A DNA stretch of 64,000 bases from Ginglymostoma cirratum. Lineage: Eukaryota. Shown one piece after another: positions 1 through 48,192 of the stretch; within the stretch, counting starts at the first letter, position 1, and each line of letters opens with the position of its first letter. Under the pieces are notes generated by a model, which did no database searches, was not told the origin of the DNA, and saw nothing but the letters and a program-made list of their open reading frames with translations. The position numbers were made by a program, and so were the translations under genes. The DNA is taken from the NCBI GenBank assembly GCA_024137785.1, contig JAHRHZ010000282.1:372001-436000 (forward strand). Reading direction: 5' to 3'.

Positions 1-321
1 GATCCAGTCTGGCGTTGTTTGAAGAACTCCCCTCTCGTTAAAGGCCGAGCGAAGAAGCCACCATAGAAAACACAGTTGACGATGAAAGACTGGCACTCTT
101 TCGTGGTTACTGCTGGCGGCGTCTGGACCACTGACTGACTGAAAGATCCTGGAAATTAAAGAGAAATACATTAATGGGCTTTAAAATCTTGACCAGACAC
201 AACGCCTGCTGTTTTAATGGACACGGGGAGCTTTATGCAAAATGCCCACAATGTTATGTTTGTTTGATTTGTACTTACGGTGTAAATAGGCACAAAGTGT
301 GAAGATAAAAACGAGTCCCAT
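1..321 (-). CDS. NAR-TCR-type V segment: leader exon 321-279, intron, V exon from 148 running off the left edge
   Basis: Leader MGLVFIFTLCAYLH with phase-1 GTAAGT donor; acceptor tttccag; spliced product continues RSFSQSVVQTPPAVTTKECQSFIVNCVFYGGFFARPLTRGEFFKQRQTG. FR1 resembles IgNAR V (VDQTP.SVTKETGESLTINCVL) with an extra FR1 Cys. 3' end and RSS are outside the window. Confidence 0.8.
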
Positions 322-1198
322 TTTGCTATTGTCTCTTGCAACACATGATTTATATGAATCGGGAGCTGGAAGCTGCTCTTGGACAGGGTCGCAGAGCTGG
401 ACTGAAATACAGCAGAATGATTGCTTTAATTTGTAAAAAGCACTGTCCTTGATCCGATGTCAAATCCCCTCCTACATTAGCCTGACGTACAGGGGGCGGG
501 ATTGGAACCTGTTCTGTGAATAGAGGCTTCCGTTCTCCATGCACTCGGAGGGATGAGCTTGGATTCCATTACTGCCAAGAAGTCATTAATATTCCTCTGA
601 ACTTGTTACCAGGATGTTAGTTTAACCTTCAATCGCGGGAGGGCACCTCAGACTCAATCAACCAGAATCAGTGCAACCTCTGAAAGGGATGTTAAAATGT
701 GAGATTGCCCAGTCGAATTGTCAATACCTGCAAGAGAGCAGACAGACACCTTCGAATCTTCCTGTCGTCTCTTATGAATTTACAGGTTAACAGCAGAAGT
801 CAGCGCCTCAAGTCTGCTCGGCCATTCAAAACAATCAAGACTAATCGGGCTCATTCGCATTTACTCCAAATTTTACTCGTGTTTTTTTTAAAGGACCATG
901 AATGTATCTCACTCTGCCTTAAAATATCCAAATCTCTGTTTGTAACGCCTTTTGAGAAGCAGAGTTCCAATGACTCACTACCCTCTGTGAGAAAAGAAAT
1001 GGTCTTTATCTCTGTCTTAACTATTCGACTCCTCATCATCAAGTTGGGATTCTGAGTTCAAGGTTCACCACCAAGAGAGAACATCCTTTCCATGTCCAAC
1101 GGATCAAAACTCCTGAAAGTCTGAGATGTGTCAGTCAAATGGACTCTTCCTCTTCTAGCCTCAAACAGACAAGGCTCAAGTATCCCTGCTGACCCCTT

Positions 1199-1476
1199 AG
1201 GACAGCACGGTGGTTCCGTGGTTAGCACTGCAGCCGCAGAGTGGCAAAGTCTTCGGTTCGATTCCAGCCCCTGGTGACTGCCTCTGTGGAGTTTTTCCAT
1301 TCTCCCCGTGTCTGCTTGGGTTTCCTCCACAGTCCAAAGATGTGCCGAATAGGCGGATTACCAAGAGTTTTCATGGGTGTATGGGTTAAAGGGGTCTGGG
1401 TGGAATGTTCCAAGGGTCGCTGTGGACTTGTTGGGCCGAAGATCCTGTTCCCAAACGGTAGGAGTTCTAAATCTAA
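1199..1476 (+). mobile_element. HE1-type tRNA-derived SINE
   Basis: GGCACGGTGG..GTGGTTAGCACTG head, B-box GGTTCGATTCC, central TTCTCCCCGTGTCTGC, LINE-like tail TTGTTGGGCCGAA..CTGTT ending in TCTAA repeats. Confidence 0.85.
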
Positions 1477-4732: not shown

Positions 4733-4924
4733 TGGACCCCTAAGATGAAACTTTCGCACGTAGAAATAACTGTCAGGCTGTTAATTGATAATTTCTAACT
4801 CATGTTCACGTCTCAAATGTATTCAAATGGATTCAAAATCCTGTAGAACAATTCTTATAATTTATAAGTCTCAGATCCTTTCTTCTCTGCTTTCTAGGTA
4901 TGTGTATGTATGCTTGTATGACAG

Positions 4925-5824
4925 CTCAACTGACAGTGACTGTTATCCGTTCCAGAAGAAAACGTGATCTTTCTAGTCTCGACATTTATTGCCTGGTGTC
5001 GATGGCGGTGGTCGATCTGCTCATGATACATGCTGTATTCCGAAACCAGATTGCTGGAATTTTCTTCCCATCAAGTTTGTTGCTCATTCGTCCAGTATGC
5101 ACTCTCCGTGATGCCGTAATCTACACTGCTGCTGATTGTTCAGTATCGTTAACGGTTGCTTTTACCATTGATCGACTTGTGGCCATTTGTTGTCAGAAGG
5201 TGAACTTCTTCATGGTCCAGAAAGTGGCGCTGCTTAGTGGATTCATCACAACACTCAGATGCATAAAAACGCCTTTATTTTTAAATTAATTAACCTATCA
5301 ACATTAAAAAAAACGTACCCCGGCTCTGCAAAATAAAATTAATATTTTATACGTCAAGTACATGGGCAGAATATGACTGGATTCGCAGCATTTTGACCAT
5401 TTGTCTCACATTCATTCTGATTTTACTGCTCAACGCTCTTACTGTCAGATATATTGTAGTGGCCGATAAAGCCCGCAGAAGACTACAGACTCAGACCAAT
5501 GGAGAAAATCAGACAGGTTTGGAAATGGAAAAGCGCAATACGTCTTTGGTTTTCCTCTTTGCCATCTCAGGCAGCTTCATTCTGTTATATTCTTTATTTT
5601 TCATAGCAACATTCCATGCCCAAATTACGAATGTACCTTATTTCTACGGTTTCAACTTAAGTCAATCAGAGATCATTTAACAGGAAAGTGGATACTTGCT
5701 TCAGTTTGCGAGTTCCTGCAGCAACCCTTTTAATAATGTTGGGAACCATAGTAAATTCAGAGCTGAGTTCAACAGTGGGTTGAAATATCCATTGGGGTTC
5801 CTTGTGAAATTGTGTAAGCATTGA
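4925..5824 (+). pseudogene. GPR139-like class A GPCR pseudogene (main coding exon)
   Basis: Acceptor acag at 4921-4924, then QLTVTVIRSRRKRDLS..YCLVSMAVVDLL..TVAFTIDRLVAICCQK..ILLLNALTVRYI..FAISGSFILL..SGYLLQFASSCSNPF..SKFRAEF..LKYPL..stop at 5824. Premature stops at 5287-5289 and 5678-5680 plus a frameshift. Confidence 0.85.
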
Positions 5825-8850: not shown

Positions 8851-8912
8851 ACAGACTGGAATTCACGACTTGTGTTCTTCGACAATGTTCTGCACAGCTC
8901 GACAGATTTGTG

Positions 8913-9210
8913 GGCTTCATGGCACAGAGATGTACGGTGTTTTCAGACAGAATTGTAACGATATTGAAAGCGGCCGGTTTGCTTTCTTCGGGTAAGTTAA
9001 CAGAACACCTTTCTGCTACAACTGGAGACTTCTGTTCACTCCCCGTGCTACGCATCTTCAGCAAATATTTCAGAGATTCCCAGTGATACTGGCTGTGCTA
9101 GAAGAGGGTTTGAGTGGAGTAGGTTGTCGAAGAACTGCAGTCCAGATTTATGTTTTATTGCTCCGCATCGTTAAGTTGATCTTTTGTGATTGATTTTTTG
9201 CAATTCGGTC
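8913..9210 (-). pseudogene. TCR alpha/delta-type V pseudogene
   Basis: ..NINLDCSSSTTYSTQTLF*HSQYHWESLKYLLKMRSTGSEQKSPVVAERCSVNLPEESKPAAFNIVTILSENTVHLCAMKP; Trp41 is TAG; heptamer CACAAAT 8912-8906, nonamer-like ACACAAGTC at an over-long 30-nt spacing. Confidence 0.8.
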
Positions 9211-9559
9211 CTCAAACATAGATACAAAATGTGTCAAATGGTGATTGCAACGCCGAGAATGTGCAATCACTATTTGAAATCAACCTCACCAGGCAACAAG
9301 ACAATTATCTGTGGTGATGATCAAAAGGAACACATGGTTTCTTGTTTACAGGTGACCAGAAAAATAACAGAATGTTGGCCCTCCTCGTTTTGATATTGAA
9401 ATGTAAAGCAAATCATGATCCGGCTTCGCTGACTGAGAAGATAGGGAGTCTCCCTGACGCTCAGTTTGTTGCTCTGTCAGTGTTGATGGAAACTACGCAA
9501 CAATTAATAGCAGCTATTGACATTCCTCTGATTATTTCTCTGACATTCTCAACATCGCT

Positions 9560-9733
9560 TTGTCTCCTCTCTTTGCCTTACCCTCGTTTGCTCTGGCGAA
9601 ACTGTTTCTGATTGAAAGAGAAGTCTAGCTTCAGTAAAATGCTTGGCAATGAAGACTGGATAAATAACCGTGGGAGTGAACCAAGTGTTTGACAAAGTTG
9701 AACAAACGCAATCCAGAGTCCACCAGTAGGCGG
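9560..9733. repeat. Local duplication, copy 1 (copy 2 about 11175-11335)
   Basis: Shared CTCGTTTGCT.TGGCGAAACTGT..TGGCAATGAAGACTGGATAAATAACCGTGGGAGTGAAC.AAGTGTTTGA..GCAATCCAGAGT.CACCAGTAGGC. Confidence 0.85.
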
Positions 9734-10174
9734 TGACAAAAACATGTAGAGATTTCACTTTGACATCAGATTGAAAGTTGATCCACAAACGTTATTTAGG
9801 TTTGTATAAACCCTATGAAACAATAATGATCAAAGGTCATAGCGACGGCACCCTAAAATTAAAACAGTCATGTATGGAACGAGAATATCAGGCAGACGTC
9901 ATTTAAAGGTAAAGCACCGAAAGGATTTATGAATTCTGAGACAAAGATTGAGAAAAAAATGCAAGTAATGATGTCAGATAATAATTTCAGTTGGAACATG
10001 GCCAATAACAAATTTTCATGGAGTATTGAACCCAGTGCTGCAAGGTGAGACTGAAGGGCTAGGAAGAGATACAGACATAGGGAGAGAGGGTGGGAGACGA
10101 ATAGACACAGACAGTGAAGGCAATCAGTTTGTTTTCTGTTTTGAAGAGGCCCATGTTTCGAGACATCCAATCCC

Positions 10175-10440
10175 TAACTCTAACAGTAAATGACGCCTGG
10201 TGATAACATTCTTTAATAATCTGTTGTTAAGAGTATCGCCCAACAGTGTTTCTCTTTGAGGTGAATGTAAATCTCTCCACTTTGCTCCTCCATCGCCATC
10301 ATTGAAAGCCCTGGTATCGACAACGAATCCTGGTTTGGAATCAACTGACTGAATGATTTATGTTCTGTCCCCTCTTCATCCTCATGAACAAAAAGTCTCG
10401 CAATCTCTTTTTGCAATTTGGAGCTCGAATTTTCCTGACA
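10175..10440 (-). pseudogene. Possible highly decayed V relic (gamma/light-chain-like C-x-x-W-D end)
   Basis: With several frameshifts: GQNINHSVS*FQ..QGFQ*W..VERFTFTSK..YS(L)..RLLKN..GVIYC..V(R)D; no clear RSS. Confidence 0.3.
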
Positions 10441-10520
10441 TTGCGTGTTAATTATTCTGATCTTGTTTTACCTATTCTTCAATACCTTGTGATGTTTGAA
10501 TGTGGTTTCTTTTGTTTCAG

Positions 10521-10800
10521 CTGTTCCGTGTGTTGATCAGAGCCCACAGGATGACTAGATGCTGTCTCTTGAAGGGTGCGGGCTGAACTGCATTATAAAC
10601 TGTACAATGGTACTGCGGATACGATAGATTGGGACAAAGAAACACTGTCAGGGGCTCCAACATTTATTGACTCAGTATACAAGGGCAATCAAACTACAGG
10701 ACTCAACACATGTTCTGTGACCGAGTGAAGGAGTCCAACATCATTTCTCTCGATGCCAATGTGACCTCGGAGGCCAGAAAGTATGACTATGTGAAGGCAT
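10521..10800 (+). pseudogene. Decayed V relic, inverted orientation
   Basis: Acceptor tttcag, then VPCVDQSPQDD*MLSLEGCGLNCIINCT / NGTADTIDWDKETLSGAPTFIDSVYKGNQTTG; frameshifts and stops, no RSS found. Confidence 0.5.
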
Positions 10801-11945
10801 GCAAAGTGCAGATTCGGTTGTACAATATCTGTGTGTCACAATGTCTCTGCTGTTCCATTACATCTGTTCCAAAAGATACACTTTACAAATAACAGTGAGA
10901 CTAACGGGAGCTACTTTTTGATGTTTAAACGTGCATCTTGATTAACCTACAAAATGTTACAACTGTTACTGCAGATATTGGATGTTGTGGTACCACCTTA
11001 CCTTGGAACGTAAAAAGTGGACAAATTTGCTGACAATTGTAATATACTTATTTTGTGAGTCTTCAGGTTTTGAAATAGTTCATTTCCTTATTCAGAAAGA
11101 CATGGATAAAATTCACGCATAGCCTGAAAATTTTCAAGTAACACACACGTCACACAAGTGCCAGGTTGTGAATGTCTTCTCTTCTCTTTGCCTCACTCTC
11201 GTTTGCTTTGGCGAAACTGTCTTTGCTTGAAATAGAAGTCAAATGCATGGCAATGAAGACTGGATAAATAACCGTGGGAGTGAACAAAGTGTTTGAAAAA
11301 ATGGAACAAGTGCAATCCAGAGTTCACCAGTAGGCCAAATATAACCATCATTCCCGACTGCCAATCACATTGTCATCACCGAAACCCGACTATCAAAGTC
11401 CTGACGGCTTCTATTCAACAGACACTGGACCAGCCATATAAATGCTGTGGATGCTAGAGTAGATCAGAAAGAAAGAATTCCACAGGGAATAATTCACCTC
11501 TCGACTCCCAAACACTGCCCACCATCTACCAGACACACGTGATGTTTGGTACCGAACACTTTCCACTCAGCTGGAATAGCTCAGCTCCAAGAACACTCAA
11601 GAATCTCGAGACCAATCCGGTTACTGCTGTTAGAGGAGAACAGATTTTCACTGAGATGAAAATGCATAGTGTGAAGTGATATTAGTTCCCTGCGAAGGCA
11701 AATGATACAATTACAATTGAAGTGTGAGGATGGGATAGATATGTTCAATTGATTAGCTATAGAAGTCTATAACCAACAAGTGCCAGAAAACAATTTGTAC
11801 AGGTAGTTGTTGGCATGAATAACGTTTACAGACAGAAACTAACTGCGCAAGCGAACCCCGTCTATTCCCGTACAGTGTTCTGCACTTCTTCATCTTTCAA
11901 CAATTTTCATGGTAACCTCCCAAGTGTTTCACTTTCTGAGTGTGA

Positions 11946-11963
11946 GAGCGCCGTCTGGTGAGC
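11946..11963 (-). promoter_or_regulatory. CTCF-like element 3' of a V RSS
   Basis: GCTCACCAGACGGCGCTC on minus strand, about 22-24 nt past the nonamer. Confidence 0.5.
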
Positions 11964-11985
11964 AGGAACTGGAAATATCAACGAT

Positions 11986-12213
11986 GGCTTTTGTACAAAA
12001 TCTGCGAGATGTCTGCATCGTTCTGAGCTCCGTGGCACAGGAATGCACAGTGTTGACTGAGATGCGAACATTGGTGATAGTTAGTTTGATAATCCTGTCA
12101 GTTTTTTTAAGTGTAGAACAAAATCGATGGCTGATGCCGTTGTCCCTGTGCACACCACTCCCAGTAAGCAGAAACATGTACTGTGGAGGCTGCCCAGGCC
12201 ACTGAGCGTACCT
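11986..12213 (-). pseudogene. 5'-truncated V pseudogene with degenerate RSS
   Basis: RYAQWPGQPPQYMFLLTGSGVHRDNGISHRFCSTLKKTDRIIKLTITNVRISVNTVHSCATE; heptamer CAGAACG 12025-12019, 24-nt spacer, nonamer ACAAAAGCC 11994-11986; 5' part replaced by CR1 sequence. Confidence 0.8.
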
Positions 12214-12254
12214 TTAGTCATAAATGTCAGTGCTGCTGGCCTTCAGATTTCTAG

Positions 12255-12965
12255 TTAGCATGATATGTTGTGCACACAGGTATCCCAGACTATATTTGTT
12301 TTGCATTTTTCTTCCGTTTTTATTCATTTAAATAATAACATGTTCTTTTGTTCTTACCAAAATGAAAAGCCATATTTTCCCATATTATACTCCATTTATC
12401 AACATTTTTCCTACTTACTTATCCTATCACTATCTCTCTTAAAATATTTTCATCCTTTTCACAGCTTCACTTCACTCGTATTGATGTCATCTGCAAATCT
12501 GTCTGCTGCACATTTGCTTCCTTCCTTCAAGACATTAATATACGTTGTAAAGGTTTATTGCTGGAGCAGTGCTCCCTGTGGAAACCCACTGGTCACAGGT
12601 CATCAGACTGAAAAAATAACTTTTGTTCCCCTCTCGCTGTTGCCTGCCCTCAGATAATTCTCATTTCTTGCCAATATACTACCTCCAATATCTTGGGATC
12701 TTATCGTATGACTTAGCCTTTTATGAGGTTCCTTGTTGAAACCCAAAACGACACATCTACTGCTTCTCCTCTCTCAAATCTGGTTGAGACGTCTTCAAAA
12801 GAAACTCTTAGATATTAGTCAGACATGATTTTCCTTTAATGAAGTTATGCTGACTCTGTTTGACTAGAATACAGTTGTCCAAATATGCAGCTATCACTTC
12901 CTTAAGTGTTGATTTTGAAACGTTTCCAACAATGGCCTATACTTACCGGCTTTTTGCCTTCCTCC
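12255..12965 (-). mobile_element. CR1-type LINE RT fragment
   Basis: Reverse complement shows VTSGFPQGALL and FADDI RT motifs and a CR1-like K..QHNF.KGKSCLTN block. Confidence 0.75.
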
Positions 12966-13144
12966 CTTTAGAGTCACGAAGGCCATGATAAATTTGCTTT
13001 CACTTTTCCAAAGCTCATGTTTTCATAATAATTCACACCAATCCTGGTGTGTCTTTTCAAAGATTCTTCCATGTGAGAAATCACCAGATCCCTGTTTGGA
13101 ATAATGACATGGCATTCAAAAGAAGTGCATGCAAACTCAGACAC

Positions 13145-13217
13145 AGGCATCACTGGGATTTGAATTAAAGTGCAATTGCTTATTAGACATGTGGTTAGCC
13201 AGCTAAGCCATCAAGCA
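13145..13217 (-). pseudogene. tRNA-Thr(AGT)-derived pseudogene
   Basis: GCTTGATGGCTTAGCTGGCTAACCACATGTCTAATAAGCA..TTCAAATCCCAGTGATGCCT follows vertebrate tRNA-Thr(AGT); anticodon now AAT. Confidence 0.7.
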
Positions 13218-13299
13218 GCAGATCAGGGAGCATCGATATGCCCATTTCCTTAGCCACCTCTTCTCAAGTACTACTTCTTTTTGCTGTTCCAATGTTGTT

Positions 13300-14110
13300 C
13301 AGTGAGAACTTCAACAAGCTTCTATTTTTGCAAAAAATGGACAGTTCAATGCTGAACAGTCTCCACTGAAAGTGCATGGAAAGAGAAAATGTCCTCTTGC
13401 CTTGTTTTAAAGTGATTTTTCATCTGTCAAACGAACGCGATGAAGAGGTGGCATTGATCATCTTGGTGCCCATTAACTGCGTGAACACAAACTGAGGGGA
13501 TATCACAAGAAGAAGCTGGCGATTGTGGTTAATTGATCAGGAGTGATGTGCGATCAAGTGTAAATAATGGGCAACAAAATTTGACCAAATAACACCTCCA
13601 CTGCGCATTACTCAACAGCAAAACACTCACGTCCTGCCTCACGTTTCCAAGTCATTTTGCCTTTCACTTCATTTTACTTCCTTGCTGGTCCTCTGAATTC
13701 GTTCCCGACAGATTGCAGGTTCCCGATTAGAAACTGTAACTTTTAAAATCTGATTCCTGTGATATGGACGGCGCTCACTGAGATAGGATTTATTGTCCAT
13801 TCCGAATTACTCCAGGGATGGAGATGATGTGCTACCTCTTAACCACTTCAACACTGTCACACGTAGGTGCAGCCTGATGCCATTACCGCCAGAATTCTAG
13901 GATTTAGACCTGGCGACAACGAAGGTATAGCGATATACTCCCAACACAGAATGGTGAGTTGCTTGAAGGGTGCCATGCGTGTAAACGTTTTCCCACGTAT
14001 CTGTCGCCATTGTCCTTCTAATTGGAACCAACCTCTCACTGGAGTGAATCTGGCAGATTCAGGACGTAAGCTCTATTTGTAATCAGGAATTCGTTTGCAT
14101 TTGGAAAGTT
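13300..14110. repeat. Segmental duplication, copy 1 (copy 2 about 27940-28700)
   Basis: Shared ATTAACTGCGT.AACACA, ATTGTGGTTAATTGATCAGGAGTGATG, TTATTGTCCAT..C.AATTACT, AGGATTTAGA.C..GC.AC and CA..CAGAATGGTG in the same order. Confidence 0.8.
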
Positions 14111-14600
14111 CACACAGGAGGAAAAAAAAACAAAGTGACAGGCAAGAATTAGTTGCATCACAATCTATTATGACATAACTATTTCAATGAAATTTCATAA
14201 TTTGTTTCAGCTCTATCCCGTGTGTCCTGGAATTTCCTGGAAATCCTGTTCACATTTAAATTCATGTTTCTCTTGTCACATTCCTTGTGCTTTTTCCTGC
14301 TTTCTCCTTAGATTCACTCACTGTTCTTTCAGTTGCTTCTCTTTAGTTCTCAGTCTCCATGGTTCCATATTGCTGTACATGTTTCTCTCACTGGATGGTC
14401 ATCTAAGTCCTTTTCCATTTCATTCTAGTTAATCACCCTGTCTTTTCACACATTTCCACTGTTTTCTTTTGCTACTGTTTGTCTCCTGGTAATGCCATCT
14501 GCTTTTTGTCTGCTGAATCGCTATCAACCTTTCTCCCTATTCGCAGCCCAGATCTCCTGGGATCTCATCACAGATAAAAACAAATATTTAGCCACTTTTT

Positions 14601-14616
14601 CCACCAGATGGCGCGC
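14601..14616 (+). promoter_or_regulatory. CTCF-binding element
   Basis: CCACCAGATGGCGCGC, near-perfect core on plus strand. Confidence 0.7.
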
Positions 14617-16273
14617 TGATCCATTTTATTTATTCGAAGCATGGAAATATTATTGTACGTCTATATCATTGCATTCCAGAATTTAACACGAGTTACACTT
14701 TTAGAAGGAAACGTCAGTTAATATTGAGTAGCCAGCGTAAAGAATTTATGTATATCCGACCTCAGATACATCAGCAGGCCCTAGAAACCTGACATCAGGG
14801 CTTCTGTTTCCAAACTCAAGTACGGTCTTCACTTATTTACAGAATTTGTCTACATACAGGAAGAAAGTCAAGAACCTAATACGCTCAGGTCAAGCTGATA
14901 CTCGGAATGTGCTTCCCACTGCACTGTAATGCCAGTTAAATCGGGTGAGTGGTCAACAACAGACTCGCATCCAATTAATGTACCCAAGCACATCCAGAGG
15001 AGATGATTCTCCTCTCTGGATGGCAGTGGAATTGACCTCAGTACGACCAGAAGTGAAGTGTTCAAACGGTGCCCCACCAGTAATTCACCGGGCAATAGAG
15101 AGCCTTTTTTTGTCTTGGAGAGGTCAAATGAGAAATCTGTCTCCAAGGCAGGTGACATGAGAAAGTGTAAACAATTTGGGTTAATCCAAAGGAAAGGATG
15201 TAAATGTTCCTTCGCGTGAAAATCATCCTTTCGATTGTAAACCCGATTCATTCTCATTAAATCAATTCTTCAGTAGTATCAAAGAACTTCCCGTACTGGA
15301 GACCTCGAAAAAAATTAGAAATTGATGGAGGCAAACTCAGCAGGTCTTGCAACATCTGTGCAAAGAGAGTTGAAGTTTCGAGTCAAGATACCCGTTGTCA
15401 GAACACAACACTGGACTCGAAACTTTCACTGTCTTTTTTTCTATCTCCCCAGTATTATTCCTTATCCGCCATAATCACAAACAGAAAAACGTAATGATTG
15501 AAATTACACCTTCAATACTTTTGATTTTACGTGATATTTTCTGCAGAGAAGTGTTTGCTTTAAAAACAAATTTATTCTACTTTGTACCAACTGTTTGTAG
15601 AGGCTCTTCACACTCTCATTTGAAGCACATGCTTCCATAGGAGACAACATCAATTGAAATCTTGTAACGTAACCATTGTGTGTTCTGATGAACGATTTAG
15701 TTATTATGAATATCAGCAGGTGATTTTGTTCTCACAGAAGAGGTTCCACAGTTTATCGCTTCACATCTGCTGTTCATGAACTGCTATTGCTATCTAATAT
15801 GTAAGTCTTTCCCAAATTCATTCATATAATAGGAGGCACGTAACTAATGGAAATGCATCGCTGAGTTTAAACTATGATAGTCGAATTGTTCACCTTCATC
15901 CCGCACTATCTTCACTGTAGGGAATCCAGAGGATACTGCACAGATATTTTAATGGAAATCTTCGTTCAAGATACAAGCACAATATGAGCTACTGCATTTC
16001 CGTTCCTTCATCCAGCTCTCAGACTGAAATTTTGAGGGGGAAACATTCAGTTTAATTTCTGTACTGGTCCCTGTTCCGTTCACTGTTACCTCTCTTATAT
16101 CAAGCACTGGAGAGGAAACGAGCAGTGAGCTGTTGGATGTCACTTGCTCACAGTGTCAACAATGCACCAATCAGCAGACACTATGGATGTTACTCGAAAT
16201 TGACTCAATTCTCAACTTCAACAATTTCAACTTCTGTTTCCATTGTCCAAATCCGCATTAACCTCTGACAAGC

Positions 16274-16730
16274 GTGTCTGTTATTTTCTATTCATTCTTC
16301 ACATTTGGAGCTCTCATAACTGGTGACTCATTTGAAAATCTAAACACTGTTCCCTATGCAGTCATCAATGATATCGTTTTAAATGTGCGTTCTCCCTATT
16401 TCGTAAACGTTCAGTTGCCAGATGATATTGAGTACTATAGCATGATGATAACAGAATGAAGTTTTGTGCTTCTAAATTTATGCCAGTGTTTTTGGTGCTG
16501 AATCTGTCTCCCAGGAGCCGGTTTCAGACATGATGCTTGAAAAAAAAAGTACAGTGACCATTAGTTACAGTTATTCGATCACAGCCACTCCAAATTCTTT
16601 GCCAATTCATCGTCAGTATCGGGACAAGATCGCAACATTCTTGATCTACATTTCTAATTATGGAGCTGTTATCAGGGCTAAGGGTGTGGAGCCTCGATTT
16701 TCTCCTAATATTGACCGTGTGAGAAGTGAG
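16274..16730 (+). pseudogene. V pseudogene of the Cys23/Trp41-less family, inverted and 3'-truncated
   Basis: Leader (GTG)SVIFYSFFTFGALIT G|gtgact at 16274-16322; V: VFGAESVSQEPVSDMMLEKKSTVTISYSYSITATPNSLPIHRQYRDKIATFLIYISNYGAVIRAKGVEPRFSPNIDRVRSE; no YYC or RSS. Confidence 0.8.
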
Positions 16731-17512
16731 AGGATATACATTGATTACTAGGATGTAACAAACACATTGTAACTGGACAATGTCTCTACATGACTGTTTC
16801 CATCACTTGTGAATAAACGAGCGAGATCTCAGACTGAAATTAAATCCAACAGTGGTGAATTAGTAGGAAGAACACAAGGCAGTTATTAAATTAACCATTT
16901 AATGCATGCTGTATTACCTGTTTCAGCTGTTCATTGCTATTTTTCCCTCTCTGTTTGGATGCTGCCAGTTCAGAGTGACAAGAGAAAGTCTTTCCCTCTT
17001 TTATGCCATGTAGAACTCACAACTCTGCAAACTCAATCTCAGCTCAACAACTGTATTTCTTTCTCTGAAACTACTTATGTCAGGCCACGAAAAGGGCAGC
17101 TCTTTGTTCGGCCGATTTTAGTTCAATCTGTCCGTCAGGTCAGTTCGAACTCAATATTTCTGTCAGATAACTTAGAGCAAAAGTTTGTTTATCAGTTCAG
17201 AGAGAGATTGTGTTGTTTCTACATTCAGTGAGTGATCAAATTATCTCTTCTTTCAGTTTATGACAACCTTTTTTAAAATCTTTTTTTTCTCTAATAAAAA
17301 GAATGCACCATTAATGTCCTTCTTCTCTGCCATCAACATCGGCTTGTGGTTTTCGATATGATCAGACCATGAGACCGAGGTCATCCTCTTGCATGTTTCA
17401 AGGAAGTGACTTCAAATCAAATGCAACCAATGCTGTCAGGTTTTTCTTTTCCAATGTTCTGCAGATTTTTTGGGGCACAGAAATATCACTTTTATCCAGA
17501 AGCAAAAGCGAC

Positions 17513-17911
17513 ATGGCTTTCCTTTCTCTCACTCGTGTGGGTGACTTCCATCGTTGGTAAGGTTGAAACTTTAAAAAGGGGGTTTAATCGCTGTAGGCAT
17601 AAATTAGTGAAACAGAGTCCTCAACTTAGACAACGATCCGAACTGGATTGAAGCACGCTTGGGTTATTGTCTGCAGTTTTAAATTTAATCTCTTCCTTAC
17701 CTAATGAATGAAGCCAAAGTTCGCAGTCAGAAGGTACGTGAGTGTTACTGCTGTAATGAAGGTGTTTTTGCTTAGCTCCCGTTTTCTGAAACAGTCCAGA
17801 CAAGTAGTGCAGACTTCCCATCTCGCAGCTATTGTTGTCTGACTCTGCGGTCTATCACTGTGCAATGAGCCTCACGTTCATGAGAATGCGCAAAAACCTC
17901 ATACAATAACT
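17513..17911 (+). pseudogene. Internally deleted V pseudogene with 23-RSS, inverted
   Basis: Leader-like WLSFLSLVWVTSIV G|gtaagg; 3' end CRLPISQLLLSDSAVYHCAMS; heptamer CACGTTC 17873-17879, 23-nt spacer, nonamer ACAATAACT 17903-17911. Confidence 0.75.
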
Positions 17912-18936
17912 GCAGGTTTCTGGGTCACAGCTGCTGCCTGAAAAGGCCTGCTTGCAGTAGCGGGTCACACACTGAAGCTTCAGTACATTCCTAGGCGGGA
18001 AAGTCCCGAGAGCCATCGACAATATCAGCATTTAAAATTGTTCACAGTAAATGCGGATTCTGATTGATGCATTGTCTATGGAAGGATTGAATTTGTTTCT
18101 GTTCCTTTTGAGACTCGCGGAAAAGTTTCCATTCACTTTCATTAACAATACAAATTCTGCAGTTGGCCTGATACGAAACATTTCTGTGTATCACTGTTTT
18201 GAACAAAAATTGAACAAATAATTTTCCACGTGAAATTCCAGGATTATGGACAGCAACCCACTACTTGAGGAAATCCCTATGATTTGCTGTGACATGATTG
18301 AAGATCTCCCAATATTAAATATGCACATATTAAAGCCGAAGACTCCATAATGTAACAAGGGAAAAAGGGTATATTTTCAGGATACGACGAGAACATAATG
18401 AGCAGTGATATTAATGGTAACAACCTGGCAGGACAGTCTGGGATTTTTTTGGAACATTTGGTCAGATAACTCATTTAATATAAAAGCCCAATTGAAAAAA
18501 AAATCATGCTATCGAATATTAGAATTGCTTTTGGAAAACTGAATTCACCGGATAAGACTATATGTGAATAAAAAGTACATGTTTTTCTTTGTATCATCCC
18601 ACAGTGCTGTCTTGTTGCAGTTATATATTCATTAACGGCTGGAAAACAAAGTCAGTTCAGACATTTTGGCAAGCTATCCTGCCCTAATGCTTTTATTTAT
18701 ATCATGGCATAAATTCCTTAATCACATGCTTGTATCATGTTCAGAATGTATTCGTTTTAATTTAAACAGAGAAATCCTTTCCCAATACTGCACCTATCAC
18801 TCCCTGGCCACGAGTATTTGGATATATTTCAATTCAATGCAGTTCAAGAAAACGTTTCGAAATGTCTTGTTTTCGCTGCAGTTCGCACAGTTCTTGCCCC
18901 TTACCATATCCTGCTCAACTTGGTCCATTATAGCAA

Positions 18937-18975
18937 TGTTTTTGCACAAGGCTCCCTCTGGTTCCTGTTCCTGTG
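18937..18975 (-). other. 23-RSS
   Basis: CACAGGA-23 nt-GCAAAAACA. Confidence 0.85.
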
Positions 18976-19483
18976 TGTCTCAGCACACAGGAATACACAG
19001 CGCTGTCAGACAGTCGTAGGTCACCAGTGGTGAAATTCCCCTCAGGTTTCGAAATGCCCAGAGCTGCACAAAATCGATTTCCCACGCCGTCAGATCTGAG
19101 AACATTTCCGGATTGAAGGATGCATATCAACAGTGTTGGTGATTTACCCAGGTCTTGCAGGTAGAATTGTAAGGAATGTGAAGTAGCTATTTTGATCGAA
19201 TAGCTAAAGTTAATGTTCACCGACTGTCCTTCAAGCTGTTTTGCTGTAGCTGGCTCCTGTGAGATCGAATCTGCGCAATTCACATCGACAGAAAATTAAA
19301 CAGAAACTAAAACTGAGTCTGAAATTACCGTTTTGTTCAATAATGTCATCAAGATAAGAGAACATTTTGCAGCTGAGGTCACTACGTAAATATCATGTAC
19401 AAGGCAAAGTTTTGCGACTTGGTGAACTTACCAGTGAAGAGAACTGCATCTGTGGTTAATGCATAACATGTAACAGCTGACAT
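18976..19483 (-). pseudogene. Open-frame V segment lacking Cys23 and Trp41, with mutated splice acceptor
   Basis: Leader MSAVTCYALTTDAVLFT G|gtaagt 19483-19432; V exon 19285-18976 DVNCADSISQEPATAKQLEGQSVNINFSYSIKIATSHSLQFYLQ..DLRLSDSAVYSCVLR; acceptor reads ctgtCG instead of AG. Confidence 0.85.
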
Positions 19484-20346
19484 GTTTTTAGAATGGATAG
19501 TGGATTTGAACAGAGGTAACTGAAGCTAAATTGTTTCAGCTGAAAGCTGACAGCGTATTTCCACAGAGGGAGCTGAAGCTGAGTTGTTTCAGCTGATATT
19601 GAGTCATATCTAACAACACTGCTGATTGGTTTATTCCTGGTGGTCACTTGGAGACACCTAATCTGCTCACAGACTATTTATCGTCCATTCGGTTACTTCA
19701 GAGATATGTACACAAGAACACAGAACTGGAGCTGGGGGAAGCAACTTGACATGCTGGTGCATTCAATGAAATCATTGAGGATATGCCTCACATCCAACTT
19801 CCTGCATTATTCACAAATCCCTATAGATACGTTATTCTCAATCCAAGTGAAGTAAAGTGAAGAACAGTGCAAGGGTTTCCTTTGTATACAAACTTATAAA
19901 TTCAGCTTTGGCACTTTAACAAGGTTGACCTCTGATTAGTTTCAGTGAGGGATAACACTGAATGCTGTTGCATCTGTGTCATAGTCTTCTACAAAAATAT
20001 CTGCCCAGTGATTATAAACAGTAATCACAGTGAGAATATTTTATTTAGAATGAGACATATTCGAAACCCCGGGATGAAATTCTTTTGACAATGTAGTCTT
20101 TGCACACTTGTGGACAGGTCATTGAGTAAATTCAAGACCGAGATTGATATTTGTGGATATTAAAAACATCAAAAGCTGAGAAGGGAAAGTGGGAATATGG
20201 CGTTGAGGTAGAGGATCAGTCAAATTATATCGCGGAGCAGACTCGAAAGAACGAATACCCAACTTTTATCTGTTTTTGATGATGGCACCAATGAACAATA
20301 TACATCACACACCTGATTCAAGGAAAGGAGTTGAGAGTGTCATGCG

Positions 20347-20825
20347 GATTTTTGTAAAGGCGGATGAAGCGTCTAAATCCGTGCGGAGCTGAACGCACAA
20401 TAATCATTGGCAGAGTCAGATACAAGAGCACAGTTGGCTTTTACAGGAAGCGTTTTCTCTTCTTCATTCAAATTAGTAGAAAACCGATCTGAGAAGTGAG
20501 GAGACTTATCGACATGTTCCTAGTCAAATTTCCTCAGTAAATATTTCAGAGCTTTCCTGGGGCACTGGATGTATCAGAGGGAAGTTGGTACACTGTATTT
20601 TGCCGTTTAACTGCAATTTGATACATCGGTTTGTCCTTTCTGAACGAATCATTCAGGCGGGTCCTGCGAAAAAGAATCTTGACCAATTTGCTTTTGTCAT
20701 AAATAAGTAGAACGTGTCAAAGGTATGCGACCAAATGTAACCAGTGAAACACAGAATGATAATTTTGATTACGTCTCTCTGGATAGCACAACCGTTATTA
20801 TCAATAAAGAAGCCAGGGAGTGCAT
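20347..20825 (-). pseudogene. TCR alpha/delta-type V pseudogene with degenerate 23-RSS
   Basis: Leader MHSLASLLIITVVLSR; V: GQDSFSQDPPE*FVQKGQTDVSNCS*TAKYSVPTSL*YIQCPRKALKYLLRKFD*EHVDKSPHFSDRFSTNLNEEEKTLPVKANCALVSDSANDYCAFS; CGCACGG-23 nt-ACAAAAATC (20385-20347). Confidence 0.85.
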
Positions 20826-21859
20826 TTTATCTGGTTCAGTTATAAACAGCACACTTCTAAAATGTATTGACGCTTCTGGTATTTTACCAGCGACTGAACT
20901 CAGATCAGAGACATCCTTTATTTCCACAGAAATTGACAGCAGATGCTTCATGCTGTGACTGGCTGATGTCTCCAATTTGAGGTCAGCTGTCGAACAATCA
21001 ACGTTTCTTGAGGACTCTCTTCGATCTTCACAGTTCTTTGTGGGCTTATCTGCTTTTGTGCTGCCTCTTCCATGGTTCATCTCTCTTTTACTTCGAACTC
21101 AGTGCCTCTATCTCTAGATAGGGGAATATTTCTGTCTATTTTACATGAAAACCGCAAACAAAATCACAATTAGAGTCTCCACTATTAATCAACCATCAAA
21201 GGAATGTGCACTTATAATATTCATTGCTGCAAGAGTAGCAAGGTTAAAAATAATTCATTCAACTTCGACCTGTATTGTTGTGGGATGGTGATGGTGGTGG
21301 TGTGGGTGTTGGTGGTGGTGGGTGCTTACGAAGGTGGAGTAGTGTAGGGACTGGCAGAAGCAGTCTAAATGAAACTATTCAGCTTTTGTTTTCTGTCACA
21401 CTTCCTCCTCCCTTCACCCTCGAATTTCACAAAATCCCTCTTGCTTTTCTCCATACCTCCGGTAGGTGTGCTCCAGGTGTAGAGAGCTGATAGATGACTG
21501 AATGAGCTGACATTGGGAGGAGAGAGGGATTTGATTGTCAGGCGTGACGTGCTTGAAACTAGTTCCTGGGAGCCATAGTTTCTTTTGCCATGTGAACATA
21601 CCAGGAGATATATATCAGAGGTTTTTATTTGTCTGTGTGTCTGAGAGGGAATGTGAGGTTATTCTTGGAATCTCAATGCCAGTTTTGTTTCTTTAGGTTC
21701 ACTCCCTTCCCTGAAACAGACAGGCTGAACAAAACCCCATTGGAGCAGGGACTGTCCTTCATGGGAGAGAAGGAGAATGAGAAACCATCAAGTGAGCTGA
21801 GTCCCACTGCAATGGCAAATATTAACTTTTTAGTTACTCCATGCCTTTTCTTAACTCAT

Positions 21860-22575
21860 GTTTGTCTACAACCGACGTTCTCCCTTTTCTCTCTGTCCTA
21901 CTCCGTATTTCACTCTTGTGTTGTCCCTTTTTCTCTCTTTCTTTGTGTATTTGCCTCTTTCTCTCACTGTGTCTCCTTCTCTCTTTGTTTCGTTCCTTCT
22001 GTCTCTCTCACTGGCAGCCGCTCCTTTTCTCTCTCTCTCTTGCTATCCTTCTTTCTTTGCTTGTGTCTATCACTGGCTGCCTCTGCTTTAGCCACTTTTG
22101 CATACCGTTTCTCTCCCTGTCCCTCTCTCTTTTTGTCCCTCTCTCTCTGGGTACCTGTCTCTCTTTACACCCATCTTCCTCTTTGCCTCTCTTTTCTCTT
22201 TCCATCTGTTTTTATTTCACCCTGACTTTTCTGCCCGTTTCCTGTCTGTTTTCTGTCTTTTTTCACCTCTACCCTTTCACCCGTCCTTTTTCCCTTCTGT
22301 CCTTTTCCACTCTGCCCTTTCCACCCTGCCCTTCCTTTCCTGCCCCTTTTTTTCCCATCGGACCTTTTGTCCCCTCTACCTTTCACCCCTCTTCCTTTTT
22401 TCCCTCCTGGCCATTTTGGTCCCCGTTGCCCTTTCCCCCTTCTGCTCTTTTCTGCCTCTGTGTGCATCCTCTCTCTGTTCTTTCCCCTGCCCATTTCCTC
22501 CCTGCCATTTTGCTCTACTCTGCACTTGTTTCCGCTCTGTAATTTTTTTCCTTTGGTTCTCTTTTCTGCACCCGC
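21860..22575. repeat. Polypyrimidine (C/T-rich) low-complexity tract
   Basis: About 700 nt dominated by C and T on the plus strand. Confidence 0.9.
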
Positions 22576-22854
22576 CCAATTGTGCATCACTCCCCAATTT
22601 GCAGATCCCAAATTTTGCAGCCCGATGAAATAGTAGTGTAATAGTTTGGGACATCATGAAAGTTGTGAAACAAATAATTTGGTTTTCATTCGATAGCTTG
22701 ACGGTATTCGTTTATTTCAATACTATATTTATAATGGTAAAAATGCGCATTGAATTGAAAAGTGTCGGATATCACTGCGACTTCGGGAACCATTTCAGAT
22801 CTTACCCTGATATATTGTTCGCCTGACGACTGTCACATTCAGTGTCGCTCTGAT

Positions 22855-22893
22855 ACTTTCTGTACAGGGTCCGCCCAGTTTTGAGTCCCAGTG
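22855..22893 (-). other. 23-RSS (degenerate)
   Basis: CACTGGG-23 nt-ACAGAAAGT. Confidence 0.8.
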
Positions 22894-23317
22894 GGTCTCA
22901 GAGTGCAGGAATACACTGCGGGGTCTATCAGCTCTGTCTTAAGTACAATCAGAAGGATATTACGATTCATTTGATCCATCTCCGAGGGTCGCCGGTCTCC
23001 TGGAAATCTCTGTGTGTTCCCACCATATTTGCTTCTCTGTAGCAGATTCTCCACGGATCCTCTGGGGTTCTGACGGTACCAGAACGAATAAGGATTACTG
23101 TCTGTTGTGGTGTAATTGCATAACAATTGGACATCATCTCCCTCATTTACTTTGTTGTTAGCTGTTGTCTGTGAAACGGAATCTCCTCGAGACTGTCCAG
23201 TAAGACTCAGCAGTAACAGTAAATTACATAAAACACATATTCTTAGCGCCCACAATTGGCCCGTCACCTGGAACAATAGCCTGCTAAATATGGCAATGAA
23301 ATTAAATGTGGACGCAT
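22894..23317 (-). pseudogene. Open-frame TCR alpha/delta-type V with abnormal leader and acceptor
   Basis: V: GQSRGDSVSQTTANNKVNEGDDVQLLCNYTTTDSNPYSFWYRQNPRGSVENLLQRSKY..LKTELIDPAVYSCTLRP; leader exon 23317-23268 is 50 nt (phase 2) and the canonical acceptor position reads TG. Confidence 0.8.
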
Positions 23318-45686: not shown

Positions 45687-45725
45687 AGTTTTTGTACTGG
45701 GCTGAGACTGCTTTCTGTCACTGTG
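45687..45725 (-). other. Consensus-quality 23-RSS
   Basis: CACAGTG-23 nt-ACAAAAACT. Confidence 0.95.
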
Positions 45726-46182
45726 AGACTGAACGCACAGTAATACACAGCTGCGTCAGTCAACTGCAGCCTCGAAATGATTAAACTGGTGAATTTTGAC
45801 CCGGTTTTGAGTTCTGCAGAGAAACGGTCTCTAAAAGCATCTCCTTTCCTTTGGTCTGCATTCCAAGACCGTCTCCACACAATAAACTGGAGCTTTTTAT
45901 TTGGTTGTTGCCGGTACCAATATAAATAGTAGGACTCTTCTGTCGTACTATAAGTACATCTTATAGTCGCTGTTTCATACTCAGCCTTGCTGTCTGAAGA
46001 CTGGGGCTGAGTGACGGAATTACCATCACTCAGATCTGTAAAGTGTCCAAAAAGAAGAAAGGAAAGCATTAAAATCTGTCACTGGAACAATAGTGCATAT
46101 TTAGTTTGACTGCATAATAATTAAACGCTTCCTTACCCAGAATGAACATCCCGACCAGAACCCAGGCGCCGAATATCCGCAT
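45726..46182 (-). CDS. Intact TCR alpha/delta-type V gene segment (leader 46182-46137, V exon 46035-45726)
   Basis: GCAGCCATG start, leader MRIFGAWVLVGMFIL G|gtaagg, acceptor tttacag, DLSDGNSVTQPQSSDSKAEYETATIRCTYSTTEESYYLYWYRQQPNKKLQFIVWRRSWNADQRKGDAFRDRFSAELKTGSKFTSLIISRLQLTDAAVYYCAFS with Cys23, Trp41 and YYC. Confidence 0.95.
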
Positions 46183-46561
46183 GGCTGCTGCCAAGTGCCA
46201 CTCTGTCAGTTCCTTTAAAAGCCGAACTCAGACAGGAAGACATCCCTTCAGAGACTCCAATTGGCTCATTGTCACTTCCTTGAGTAATGGTTCACTTCCA
46301 ATAGGGTAATTTTAGTTTGCACCCGAATATTACGGTGAGATTTGCACAAGTCCCTTTGCCTCACTGTGTAAATTCTATGATTGTGGAGATTACAGACTAC
46401 GAGTCTCTTTTAATCATCTCCAAAAATAAAAGCAACATCACGAATCTTTCGAGAAATTACGTGCAATAATTCCATGGCAATGGATGTCGGAAATAGAATG
46501 GGGATTGGAGAACTTTATCGGAATGTCTCTATACCACAAAACTGTGATGAGGAAAATTATT

Positions 46562-47790
46562 AAGGTGAGGCAGGATTTCCTCCGCTATTCCCAATTCCTC
46601 GCCTCCGCCGCATCTGCTCCCAGGATGAGGCATTACATTCCTGAAAATCTCAGATGTCCTCGTTTTTCAAGGATGGCAGCTTCCCCACCCTCACTGGTCG
46701 AGAATATCCTCGACCATATCTCCCACATTTCCCACAACTCATCCCTCACACCCACTTCCCACAATAACAACCAAAACAGAATCCTTCTCATCCTCACGTA
46801 CCCTCCCATCAACCTCCGGATCCAACGCATCATCCTCCGACGCTTCCACCATCTCCAATTCGCCCCCATCACCAAAGACATTTTTTCCCTCCCCACCCTT
46901 ATCTGCTTTCTGGAGGGACTACTCTCTCCGTGACTTCGTTGTCCGCTCCACACCTGGCACTTTTCCATGCAACTGCACGAAGTGCTACACCTGCCCCTAC
47001 ACCTTCCCCCTCACCCCCTTCCAAGGCCCCAAGAAGACCTTCCACATCAAGCAGATGTTCACCCGCATATCTGCTAATGTGGTATAATGTGTTCGCTGTT
47101 CCAAATGTGGCCTCCTCTACATCGGGGAAACCAAGCAGAGTCTTGGGGACTGCTTTGCGGAACACCTACGCTCGGTTTACACTAAACAACTGCACCTCCC
47201 AGTCGCCAACCATTTCAACTACACCTCCCATTCCTTAGACAATATGTCCATCCTGGGCGTCCTGCAGTGTCATAACGATGTCACCCGAAGTTTGCAGGAA
47301 CAGCACCTGATATTTCGCTTGGGAGCCCTGCAGTCCAATGGTATCAATGTGGACTTCACAAGCTTCAAAATCTCCCCTCCCCCGACCGCATTCCAAAACC
47401 AGCCCAGCTTGTCACCGCCTCCCCATGCTGTCCTTCCTCCCACCTATACCCTCCTCCTACCTCAAGCCCCACTCCCATCTCCCAACTACGAGACTCATCC
47501 CGTCCCATTGACCTGGCCGTCTTCCATGGACTGTCCTGTCCCCTCCTTAACTCCCCACCTACACTCATCTTTACTGGCTCCACCCCCACCTCTTTGACTT
47601 GTCTGTCTCCTCTCCACCTATTTACTCCTTTAACCATCTTCTATCTGTTTCCCCCTGTCTCCCTATTTGTTTCAGAACCCCCTTCCCCTCCCCTATTTCT
47701 GAAGAAGGGTCTGGGTTGTAAACGTCATCTTTCCTGCTCCGCTGATGCTGCTTGGCCTGCTGTGTTCATCCAGCTCTACATCTTGTTATC
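46562..47790 (+). mobile_element. Penelope-like retroelement 3' part (RT C-terminus, GIY-YIG endonuclease, terminal repeat)
   Basis: YSQFL.LRRICS and VV*CVRCSKCGLLYIGETKQSLGDCFAEHLRS..EQHLIFRLGALQSNGINVDFTSF motifs; terminal repeat at about 47697-47790. Confidence 0.9.
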
Positions 47791-48192
47791 TATATTACAC
47801 AATATTCTGTTTACAGTCAAATGATTAGTTTTGTGTTAAATAGAGGGCTTTTCTCCTTTTGTTCTGTCTCACACACAAGTTCACCCTTTTGAAGGGATCC
47901 CCCTGTTATCTTTTTCCTCCAACCCAGTCTTCAACAACAAGGGCAAGGGACTCAAGCTGTTTCTTTGTCAATAAGATTGAGACAACACAATCAACTGCCT
48001 CTGTTGCTTCCTTCCTTTTCACTAGCTCATCAGGTCAAACTGACTTCAAAGTTCGTCCTTGCCTGAGCCCCAAGTAGGATCTTGCTTCGTTTCCTCTCAG
48101 ATTTTCCCTCATGAATTCTGAGCTCATCTTGTCTACAAGAAGTACTGCGCGCACTATAAACATTATTCCAAATGAATTTAAAAGGAATGCTA

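What the first reader, a model, noticed from the sequence alone, without database searches (positions are those of the whole stretch)
1..321. NAR-TCR-type V segment with extra FR1 cysteine and no Trp41
Seen: an intact leader and splice sites, an IgNAR-like FR1 with an additional Cys (TTKECQSF) and Phe at the conserved Trp position (GEFFKQ). Established: shark NAR-TCR is a doubly rearranging TCR delta chain whose N-terminal IgNAR-like V carries a non-canonical FR1 Cys proposed to bond to a CDR1 Cys of a leaderless supporting V-delta. Inference: this is the 5' end of a NAR-TCR cassette, which would place the window in the TCR alpha/delta locus and predict D, J and a leaderless supporting V immediately left of the window. 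The ORF track misses it.
Basis: partly seen in the sequence, partly recalled or inferred. Interest (0 to 1): 0.75.

Follow-up and report, generated by a model that had tools for sequence, protein, structure and literature searches.

The report
Shark NAR-TCR variable gene, front end
This is the start of a shark T-cell receptor gene segment of the known NAR-TCR type, which likely puts an extra antibody-like tip on the receptor's delta chain; it is an ordinary new copy of a described family, and its predicted partner segments lie outside the window.

Summary
Confirmed and ordinary. The minus strand holds a 43-nt leader exon (321-279), a 130-nt GT-AG intron (278-149) and a V exon open from 148 to the window edge. 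It has an extra FR1 Cys (95-93) and Phe where V domains have Trp41 (26-24). One public contig skips exactly this intron. All 14 named hits among the 16 found for the 48-residue piece are shark proteins (16 hits, 63-83% identical); 14 of the 16 continue into a J and a second V with a CDR1 Cys. One relative, 63% identical, is hand-labelled NARTCR in a published table. A quick tree nests the piece among these domains. The window also holds about eight conventional TCR alpha/delta-type V genes, mostly broken. This copy's V end, RSS, D, J, supporting V and C-delta lie left of the window and could not be read. In other cartilaginous fish such cassettes are scattered over megabases among TCR V genes and IgM clusters, so C-delta need not be close. 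New member of a known kind; low interest.

The parts
279..321 (-). Leader exon (coding part, 43 nt, phase 1)
   Evidence: 14 of 17 residues identical in the alignment to a zebra-shark model's N-terminus; covered by the spliced contig
149..278 (-). Leader intron, 130 nt, GT-AG
   Evidence: skipped in contig 9 of run X3, which has zero depth inside it
1..148 (-). 5' half of the NAR-TCR V exon (end of leader, FR1, CDR1, FR2), cut by the window edge
93..95 (-). Non-canonical FR1 (a-b loop) cysteine
   Evidence: Direct from sequence; present in 51 of the 52 relatives in which the site is covered
72..74 (-). Canonical first Ig cysteine (B strand)
   Evidence: Direct; invariant column C25
24..26 (-). 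Phe at the position of the canonical C-strand Trp
   Evidence: Direct; aligns with the VNAR Trp; Trp in 0 of 53 relatives covered
322..534 (-). 5' region: covered by the spliced contig up to 534; holds CCAAT (505), GC-box (499), CRE half-site (487) and TATA-like (354) motifs, a possible promoter
   Evidence: motif patterns recalled, no chance control run, function not tested
45687..46182 (-). Context: intact-looking conventional TCR alpha/delta V (leader, intron, both Cys, Trp, 23-RSS)
   Evidence: (V-set 56 bits)
8900..25120 (.). Context: about seven degenerate conventional TCR-type V segments (minus strand near 8.9-9.1, 12.0-12.2, 19.0-19.3, 20.4-20.6, 22.9-23.2 and 25.0-25.1 kb; plus strand 16.5-16.7 with 17.8-17.9 kb, probably one split gene)
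   Evidence: tblastn and RSS scans

Best explanation
This is the leader and first half of a germline V segment of the shark NAR-TCR family, likely the head of a cassette whose D, J and leaderless supporting V-delta are predicted to lie within about 5 kb left of the window. Shown: gene anatomy, splicing of the leader intron in one public contig (of this gene or a ~98% identical copy), family identity by sequence and tree, and a neighbourhood of TCR alpha/delta-type V genes. Inferred from relatives and the literature: RAG joins this V to its own D and J; a second rearrangement joins the supporting V to delta D-J; splicing links leader, NAR-V(D)J, V-delta(D)J and C-delta into a three-domain delta chain. 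The FR1 Cys would bond to the CDR1 Cys of the supporting V and hold the unpaired NAR domain on top of a gamma/delta receptor, where it would bind antigen like a single-domain antibody.
For: Splice joint at the predicted sites in run X3. 16 hits at 63-83% identity, 14 of them named shark proteins from 7 genera; 14 of 16 carry J plus a second V with CDR1 Cys. Over 54 relatives: FR1 Cys in 51 of 52 covered, Trp in 0 of 53, second V in 51 of 54, CDR1 Cys in 49 of 51. These are the features that PMC1845163 gives for NAR-TcR. P0037 = LOC121270138, labelled NARTCRdV in Table S1 of PMC12227049, is 63% identical over all 48 residues. The quick tree puts the piece in the clade of all 52 N-terminal domains (SH-aLRT 99), apart from supporting and conventional V. 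The whole N-terminal V of the closest relative hits VNAR structures best, E about 1e-13. The constant region attached to relative P0013 hits human TCR delta chains best, E about 1e-9.
Against: Nothing 3' of FR2 is visible for this copy: no RSS, D, J, supporting V or C. The piece alone has no significant PDB hit, and its best weak hits are TCR alpha chains (E 0.48-0.93) ahead of VNARs (E 0.97-1.4). The spliced contig differs at 8 of 404 letters, so it may come from an allele or paralogue; run X3's library type is not on record, and only 1 of 4 laid runs showed the joint. Most relatives are automatic gene models found by likeness to this query, so the FR1 counts are partly circular. The tree was the quick version and had no IgNAR rows. 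Most neighbouring V genes are broken.
Confidence: 0.86

Rival explanations
1. NAR-TCR-type V of a defective or orphan cassette: the family call is right, but the copy is broken beyond the window edge or too isolated to be joined to C-delta, and yields only sterile spliced RNA.
For: About seven of eight neighbouring V genes are degenerate. Table S1 of PMC12227049 flags one great-white NARTCR as possibly pseudo and places others megabases from the constant genes. 2 of 51 supporting V lack the CDR1 Cys.
Against: Leader, splice sites, frame and all invariant residues are intact over the visible part. A spliced contig runs 467 nt beyond the edge.
Confidence: 0.06
2. A non-standard NAR-TCR cassette: the V is already joined to D and J in the germline, or is one of tandem NAR-V domains, so the tip domain is invariant.
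For: Such forms exist among relatives: Table S1 labels a great-white gene NARTCR V(gj)V(gi)V, and P0022 and P0023 have two NAR-type V in tandem. The X3 contig continues unbroken for 467 nt, which by length alone would cross the first CDR3 and end near the conserved FR3 end of a supporting V (inferred by counting on P0003; the letters were not shown).
Against: Only 1 of 10 NARTCR rows in the table is marked germline-joined.
Confidence: 0.06
3. V segment of an IgNAR antibody cluster.
For: NAR-TCR V and IgNAR V are related, and IgNAR loci are linked to the same region.
Against: 4 of 4 VNAR alignments shown keep the Trp and lack the FR1 Cys. The piece matches VNAR structures only at E about 1 but two-V models at E down to 1e-18. 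No relative is named IgNAR.
Confidence: 0.01
4. Conventional TCR alpha/delta V, or a non-rearranging Ig-superfamily exon.
For: Best (non-significant) PDB hits of the fragment are TCR alpha chains. The neighbours are conventional V genes. Automatic names of relatives include DSCAM-like and lachesin-like.
Against: No alignment with the intact conventional V of the window. It is separated from conventional and supporting V by a long, supported branch. A great-white model with the DSCAM-like description is hand-corrected to NARTCR in Table S1 (matched to P0022 by description and species only).
Confidence: 0.01

Closest known systems
NAR-TCR (NARTCR) N-terminal V of cartilaginous fishes (Criscitiello, Saltis and Flajnik 2006; known here through PMC1845163 and PMC12227049)
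   Same: Leader present, extra Cys in the a-b loop of FR1, no Trp in the WYRK position, located among TCR alpha/delta V genes. 81-83% identical to its nearest relatives (zebra shark, whale shark, sawshark models and one unnamed rearranged entry) and 63% to a hand-labelled great-white NARTCR.
   Different: No difference found in the visible half. This exact fragment is not a collection entry, which is expected for a fragment. The downstream cassette is unseen.
IgNAR V (VNAR)
   Same: Related single-domain V; the full domain of the closest relative hits VNAR structures best.
   Different: The VNARs shown keep the Trp and lack the FR1 Cys. They splice to Ig constant domains rather than to a second V (established knowledge).
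TCR mu of marsupials and monotremes
   Same: Three-domain delta-like chain with an unpaired antibody-like tip on a supporting V (PMC3457774, PMC7615758, passages).
   Different: Independent origin, with a VH-derived tip; a functional analogue, not a relative tested here.

Membership tests
NAR-TCR V | Own leader peptide, spliced to the V exon | tested here: met
NAR-TCR V | Extra Cys in the a-b loop (FR1) | tested here: met
   Codon at 95-93; feature as defined in PMC1845163
NAR-TCR V | Canonical Trp of the WYRK motif absent | tested here: met
   Phe at 26-24, aligned with the VNAR Trp through relative P0003
NAR-TCR V | Groups with annotated NARTCR V, apart from conventional and supporting V | tested here: met
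   quick tree, 62 rows, no IgNAR rows
NAR-TCR V | IgNAR-related V domain | tested here: inconclusive
   Met for the 83%-identical relative's whole domain; the 48-residue piece alone is not significant
NAR-TCR V | Lies among TCR alpha/delta V genes | tested here: met
   About eight conventional V genes in the window; no J or C gene seen, so the distance to C-delta is unknown
NAR-TCR V | Followed by RSS, D, J and a leaderless supporting V-delta with CDR1 Cys | not testable with these tools
   Outside the window, no genome held; a second V follows in 51 of 54 relatives, 49 with the Cys
NAR-TCR V | Expressed as a doubly rearranged chain on C-delta | not testable with these tools
   Only the leader splice was seen; C-delta-like domain shown for relative P0013
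NAR-TCR V | Inter-domain disulfide between FR1 Cys and supporting-V CDR1 Cys (putative even in the literature) | tested here: inconclusive
   Model of relative P0003 has pTM 0.46 and gave no distances; the two Cys co-occur in 46 of 54 relatives (counting the complete V of P0022 and P0023)
IgNAR V | Canonical Trp kept, no FR1 Cys | tested here: not met
   4 of 4 VNAR alignments shown differ from the window at both sites
Conventional TRAV/TRDV | Trp-containing FR2 and similarity to other TCR V | tested here: not met

The most novel reading that the evidence does not exclude
This copy heads a germline-joined or tandem NAR-TCR cassette that is transcribed, giving shark T cells an invariant, innate-like single-domain tip on the delta chain. 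A spliced contig long enough to cross the first CDR3 unbroken, and germline-joined or tandem forms among relatives, leave this open. An invariant NAR-TCR would offer a fixed receptor with which to look for the still unknown ligand.
Probability: 0.06. Interest if true: 0.5.

Novelty: new member of a known kind. Interest (0 to 1): 0.15.

Why it matters
It adds one germline NAR-TCR V, with evidence of splicing, to a family already seen across sharks, rays and a chimaera. Automatic annotation names these genes wrongly (uncharacterized, Ig gamma-like, DSCAM-like, TCR alpha-like), so a correct label is useful for locus maps. It does not change what is known. The open question, what NAR-TCR binds (stated as unknown in PMC7615758), is not made more testable by half a V exon unless the cassette proves germline-joined.

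Tried and rejected
Pfam scan of the fragment: no family. PDB search of the fragment: 9 hits, none under E 0.48. PDB search with whole P0003 and a fold search of its model returned only engineered multi-V antibodies and TCRs, uninformative. AlphaFold model of P0003: two Ig V folds but pTM 0.46, no verdict on the disulfide. Search for shorter relatives found only 2 unnamed partial V. Runs: no RNA holder listed; X19 gave 0 reads (no test), X4 covered only upstream DNA, X1 covered the intron and showed no joint. The loose end at position 3 in X1 was a single contig and was not interpreted. No second NAR-type V, supporting V or J motif was found in the window. The bacterial promoter scan is not applicable and found nothing. 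The original NAR-TCR paper and the 2021 review are not held; the elephant-shark genome supplement gave no match for the terms. Earlier-findings look-ups were empty. The careful tree did not finish; the quick tree is reported.

Full report
What is there. On the minus strand an ATG at 321-319 opens a 43-nt exon that ends at a GTAAGT donor (278). A 130-nt intron ends in a pyrimidine tract and AG at 150-149. The next exon is open for 48 residues from 146 to 3, where the window ends. The leader exon encodes a short hydrophobic peptide. The V part carries a Cys in FR1 (95-93) seven residues before the canonical first Cys (74-72), and Phe at 26-24 in a GEFFKQ motif.

Splicing. I laid 4 of the 24 listed runs on 1-1200. 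One contig of run X3 (871 nt, depth 48) covers 534-278 and 147-1 and skips the 130 nt between, with the expected ends; X3 has no depth inside the intron. It differs from the window at 7 of 257 letters upstream and 1 of 147 in the V exon, so it is this gene, an allele or a very close paralogue. X3's library type is not on record. X1 covers the intron without a joint, X4 covers only upstream DNA, and X19 gave no reads, which is no test. The contig runs 467 nt beyond the window edge; those letters were not shown. Counted on relative P0003, that length would end near the conserved FR3 end of a second V. This fits a V-D-J-V transcript but is an inference from length only.

Relatives. The 48-residue piece found 16 proteins among 19 candidates, 63-83% identical over 90-100% of its length; 14 are named shark models from 7 genera and 2 are unnamed. 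Fourteen of the 16 continue through a second Cys, a short CDR3, a DGSG-type J and a second V with a Cys in CDR1. A search with the N-terminal V of P0003 gave 48 of 86 candidates, including rays and a sawfish. Over all 54 relatives fetched: the FR1 Cys is in 51 of 52 where covered (the script printed 49 because P0022 and P0023 start with a truncated extra V; P0052 and P0055 are not covered; P0054 has Phe). Trp is at the FR2 site in 0 of 53. A second V follows in 51 of 54, and 49 of these 51 have the CDR1 Cys. The relatives were found by likeness to this V, so the FR1 counts are partly circular; the second-V counts are not. Two unnamed entries (P0003, P0049) look like rearranged cDNAs with two junctions and the same start of a constant domain. 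The constant domain of Mustelus model P0013 hits human TCR delta chains best.

Family. PMC1845163 (passages) defines NAR-TcR V by a leader, a Cys in the a-b loop and loss of the Trp of the WYRK motif, and its supporting V-delta by no leader and a CDR1 Cys; it calls the inter-domain disulfide putative. The visible half meets all three V criteria. Table S1 of PMC12227049 (both parts read) hand-labels LOC121270138 of the great white shark as NARTCRdV. That model is P0037, 63% identical to the window piece over 48 residues. Four more great-white hits match NARTCR rows by description and species only. A quick maximum-likelihood tree (62 rows, 88 columns; the careful run did not finish) puts the piece in the clade of all 52 N-terminal domains (SH-aLRT 99), nearest P0003, a zebra-shark and a whale-shark model, away from six supporting V and three conventional V of the window. 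The nearest named relatives are therefore carpet sharks; I did not identify the source further. The tree had no IgNAR rows. The whole N-terminal V of P0003 hits VNAR structures best (E about 1e-13); the four VNAR alignments shown all keep the Trp and lack the FR1 Cys. Against: the fragment alone hits no Pfam family, and in the PDB its best hits are TCR alpha chains at E 0.48-0.93, ahead of VNARs at 0.97-1.4. None is significant. It does not align with the intact conventional V of the window.

Surroundings. The window holds one intact-looking conventional V (leader 46182-46137, 23-RSS at 45725; V-set 56 bits) and about seven degenerate ones between 8.9 and 25.1 kb, most on the same strand. No J, C, second NAR-type V or supporting V was found. 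This is a TCR alpha/delta-type V array. In the great white shark, seven NARTCR rows lie from 8.4 to 17.1 Mb among TCR V genes and IgM clusters, and four two-V models span 3.8-5.1 kb. In a stingray three rows lie 2.1-2.5 Mb from C-delta (section 6 read). So the rest of this cassette is predicted within about 5 kb to the left, while C-delta may be far away. No genome is held, so neither point could be checked.

How it likely works. Shown: leader, intron, V start, splice, family. From the literature (passages of PMC1845163, PMC5931798, PMC6795676, PMC3457774, PMC3149040, PMC7615758): NAR-TCR is a delta chain with two V domains made by separate V(D)J rearrangements; the N-terminal domain is thought to be unpaired and to bind antigen alone; the ligand is unknown. 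The 2006 paper and the 2021 review were not available and are known only through these. Inferred for this copy: rearrangement to its own D and J, splicing to a rearranged supporting V and C-delta, and a disulfide from the FR1 Cys to the supporting CDR1 Cys. A model of P0003 (pTM 0.46) gave no verdict on that bond.

Rivals. A defective or orphan cassette (0.06) is possible because most neighbours are broken. A germline-joined or tandem form (0.06) exists among relatives and is not excluded by the long contig. IgNAR V and conventional V (0.01 each) fail the direct feature tests.

Verdict. Observation confirmed, interpretation supported, with the cassette still a prediction. A new member of a known kind; interest 0.15. 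I make no claim that this copy is unpublished. Three paper searches were run for the family only, and supplements of papers not held could list it.

Noticed in passing
window 4861-5677 (+): Two reading frames, offset by a frameshift, each with a weak rhodopsin-family GPCR match (7tm_1, E 3e-4, below the curated cut-off): a probable GPCR pseudogene inside the V array.
   Followed up: partly
window 16497-16712 and 17790-17873 (+): The front and the end of a TCR-type V on the opposite strand to the others, about 1.1 kb apart: probably one inverted V split by an insertion.
   Followed up: partly
window 24958-25116 (-): Broken V whose 23-RSS is still near-canonical; it could still rearrange non-productively.
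   Followed up: no
window 534-1200: The spliced contig starts at 534, upstream of the promoter-like motifs at 505-349, and runs X3 and X4 also hold contigs over 491-1200. This could be upstream germline transcription or DNA in those runs.
   Followed up: no
P0012, P0013, P0015, P0033 (Mustelus asterias models): Four NAR-TCR models with a constant domain attached lie on contigs of four different lengths (1.1-1.8 Mb) and show two distinct C-delta-like forms. This may mean several C-delta genes with their own cassettes, or haplotype duplicates.
   Followed up: partly
P0022 (Carcharodon), P0023 (Heterodontus); also P0005 and P0019, P0017, P0037: Tandem NAR-type V domains with the same or similar CDR3 in two genera, and CDR3s shared between separate gene models, hint that germline-joined NAR-TCR V may be more common than the one case marked in Table S1 of PMC12227049; gene-model stitching is the alternative.
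   Followed up: no
window about 46400-50000: Retroelement-like reading frames (LINE or Penelope-like by recalled motifs) directly upstream of the intact V.
   Followed up: no
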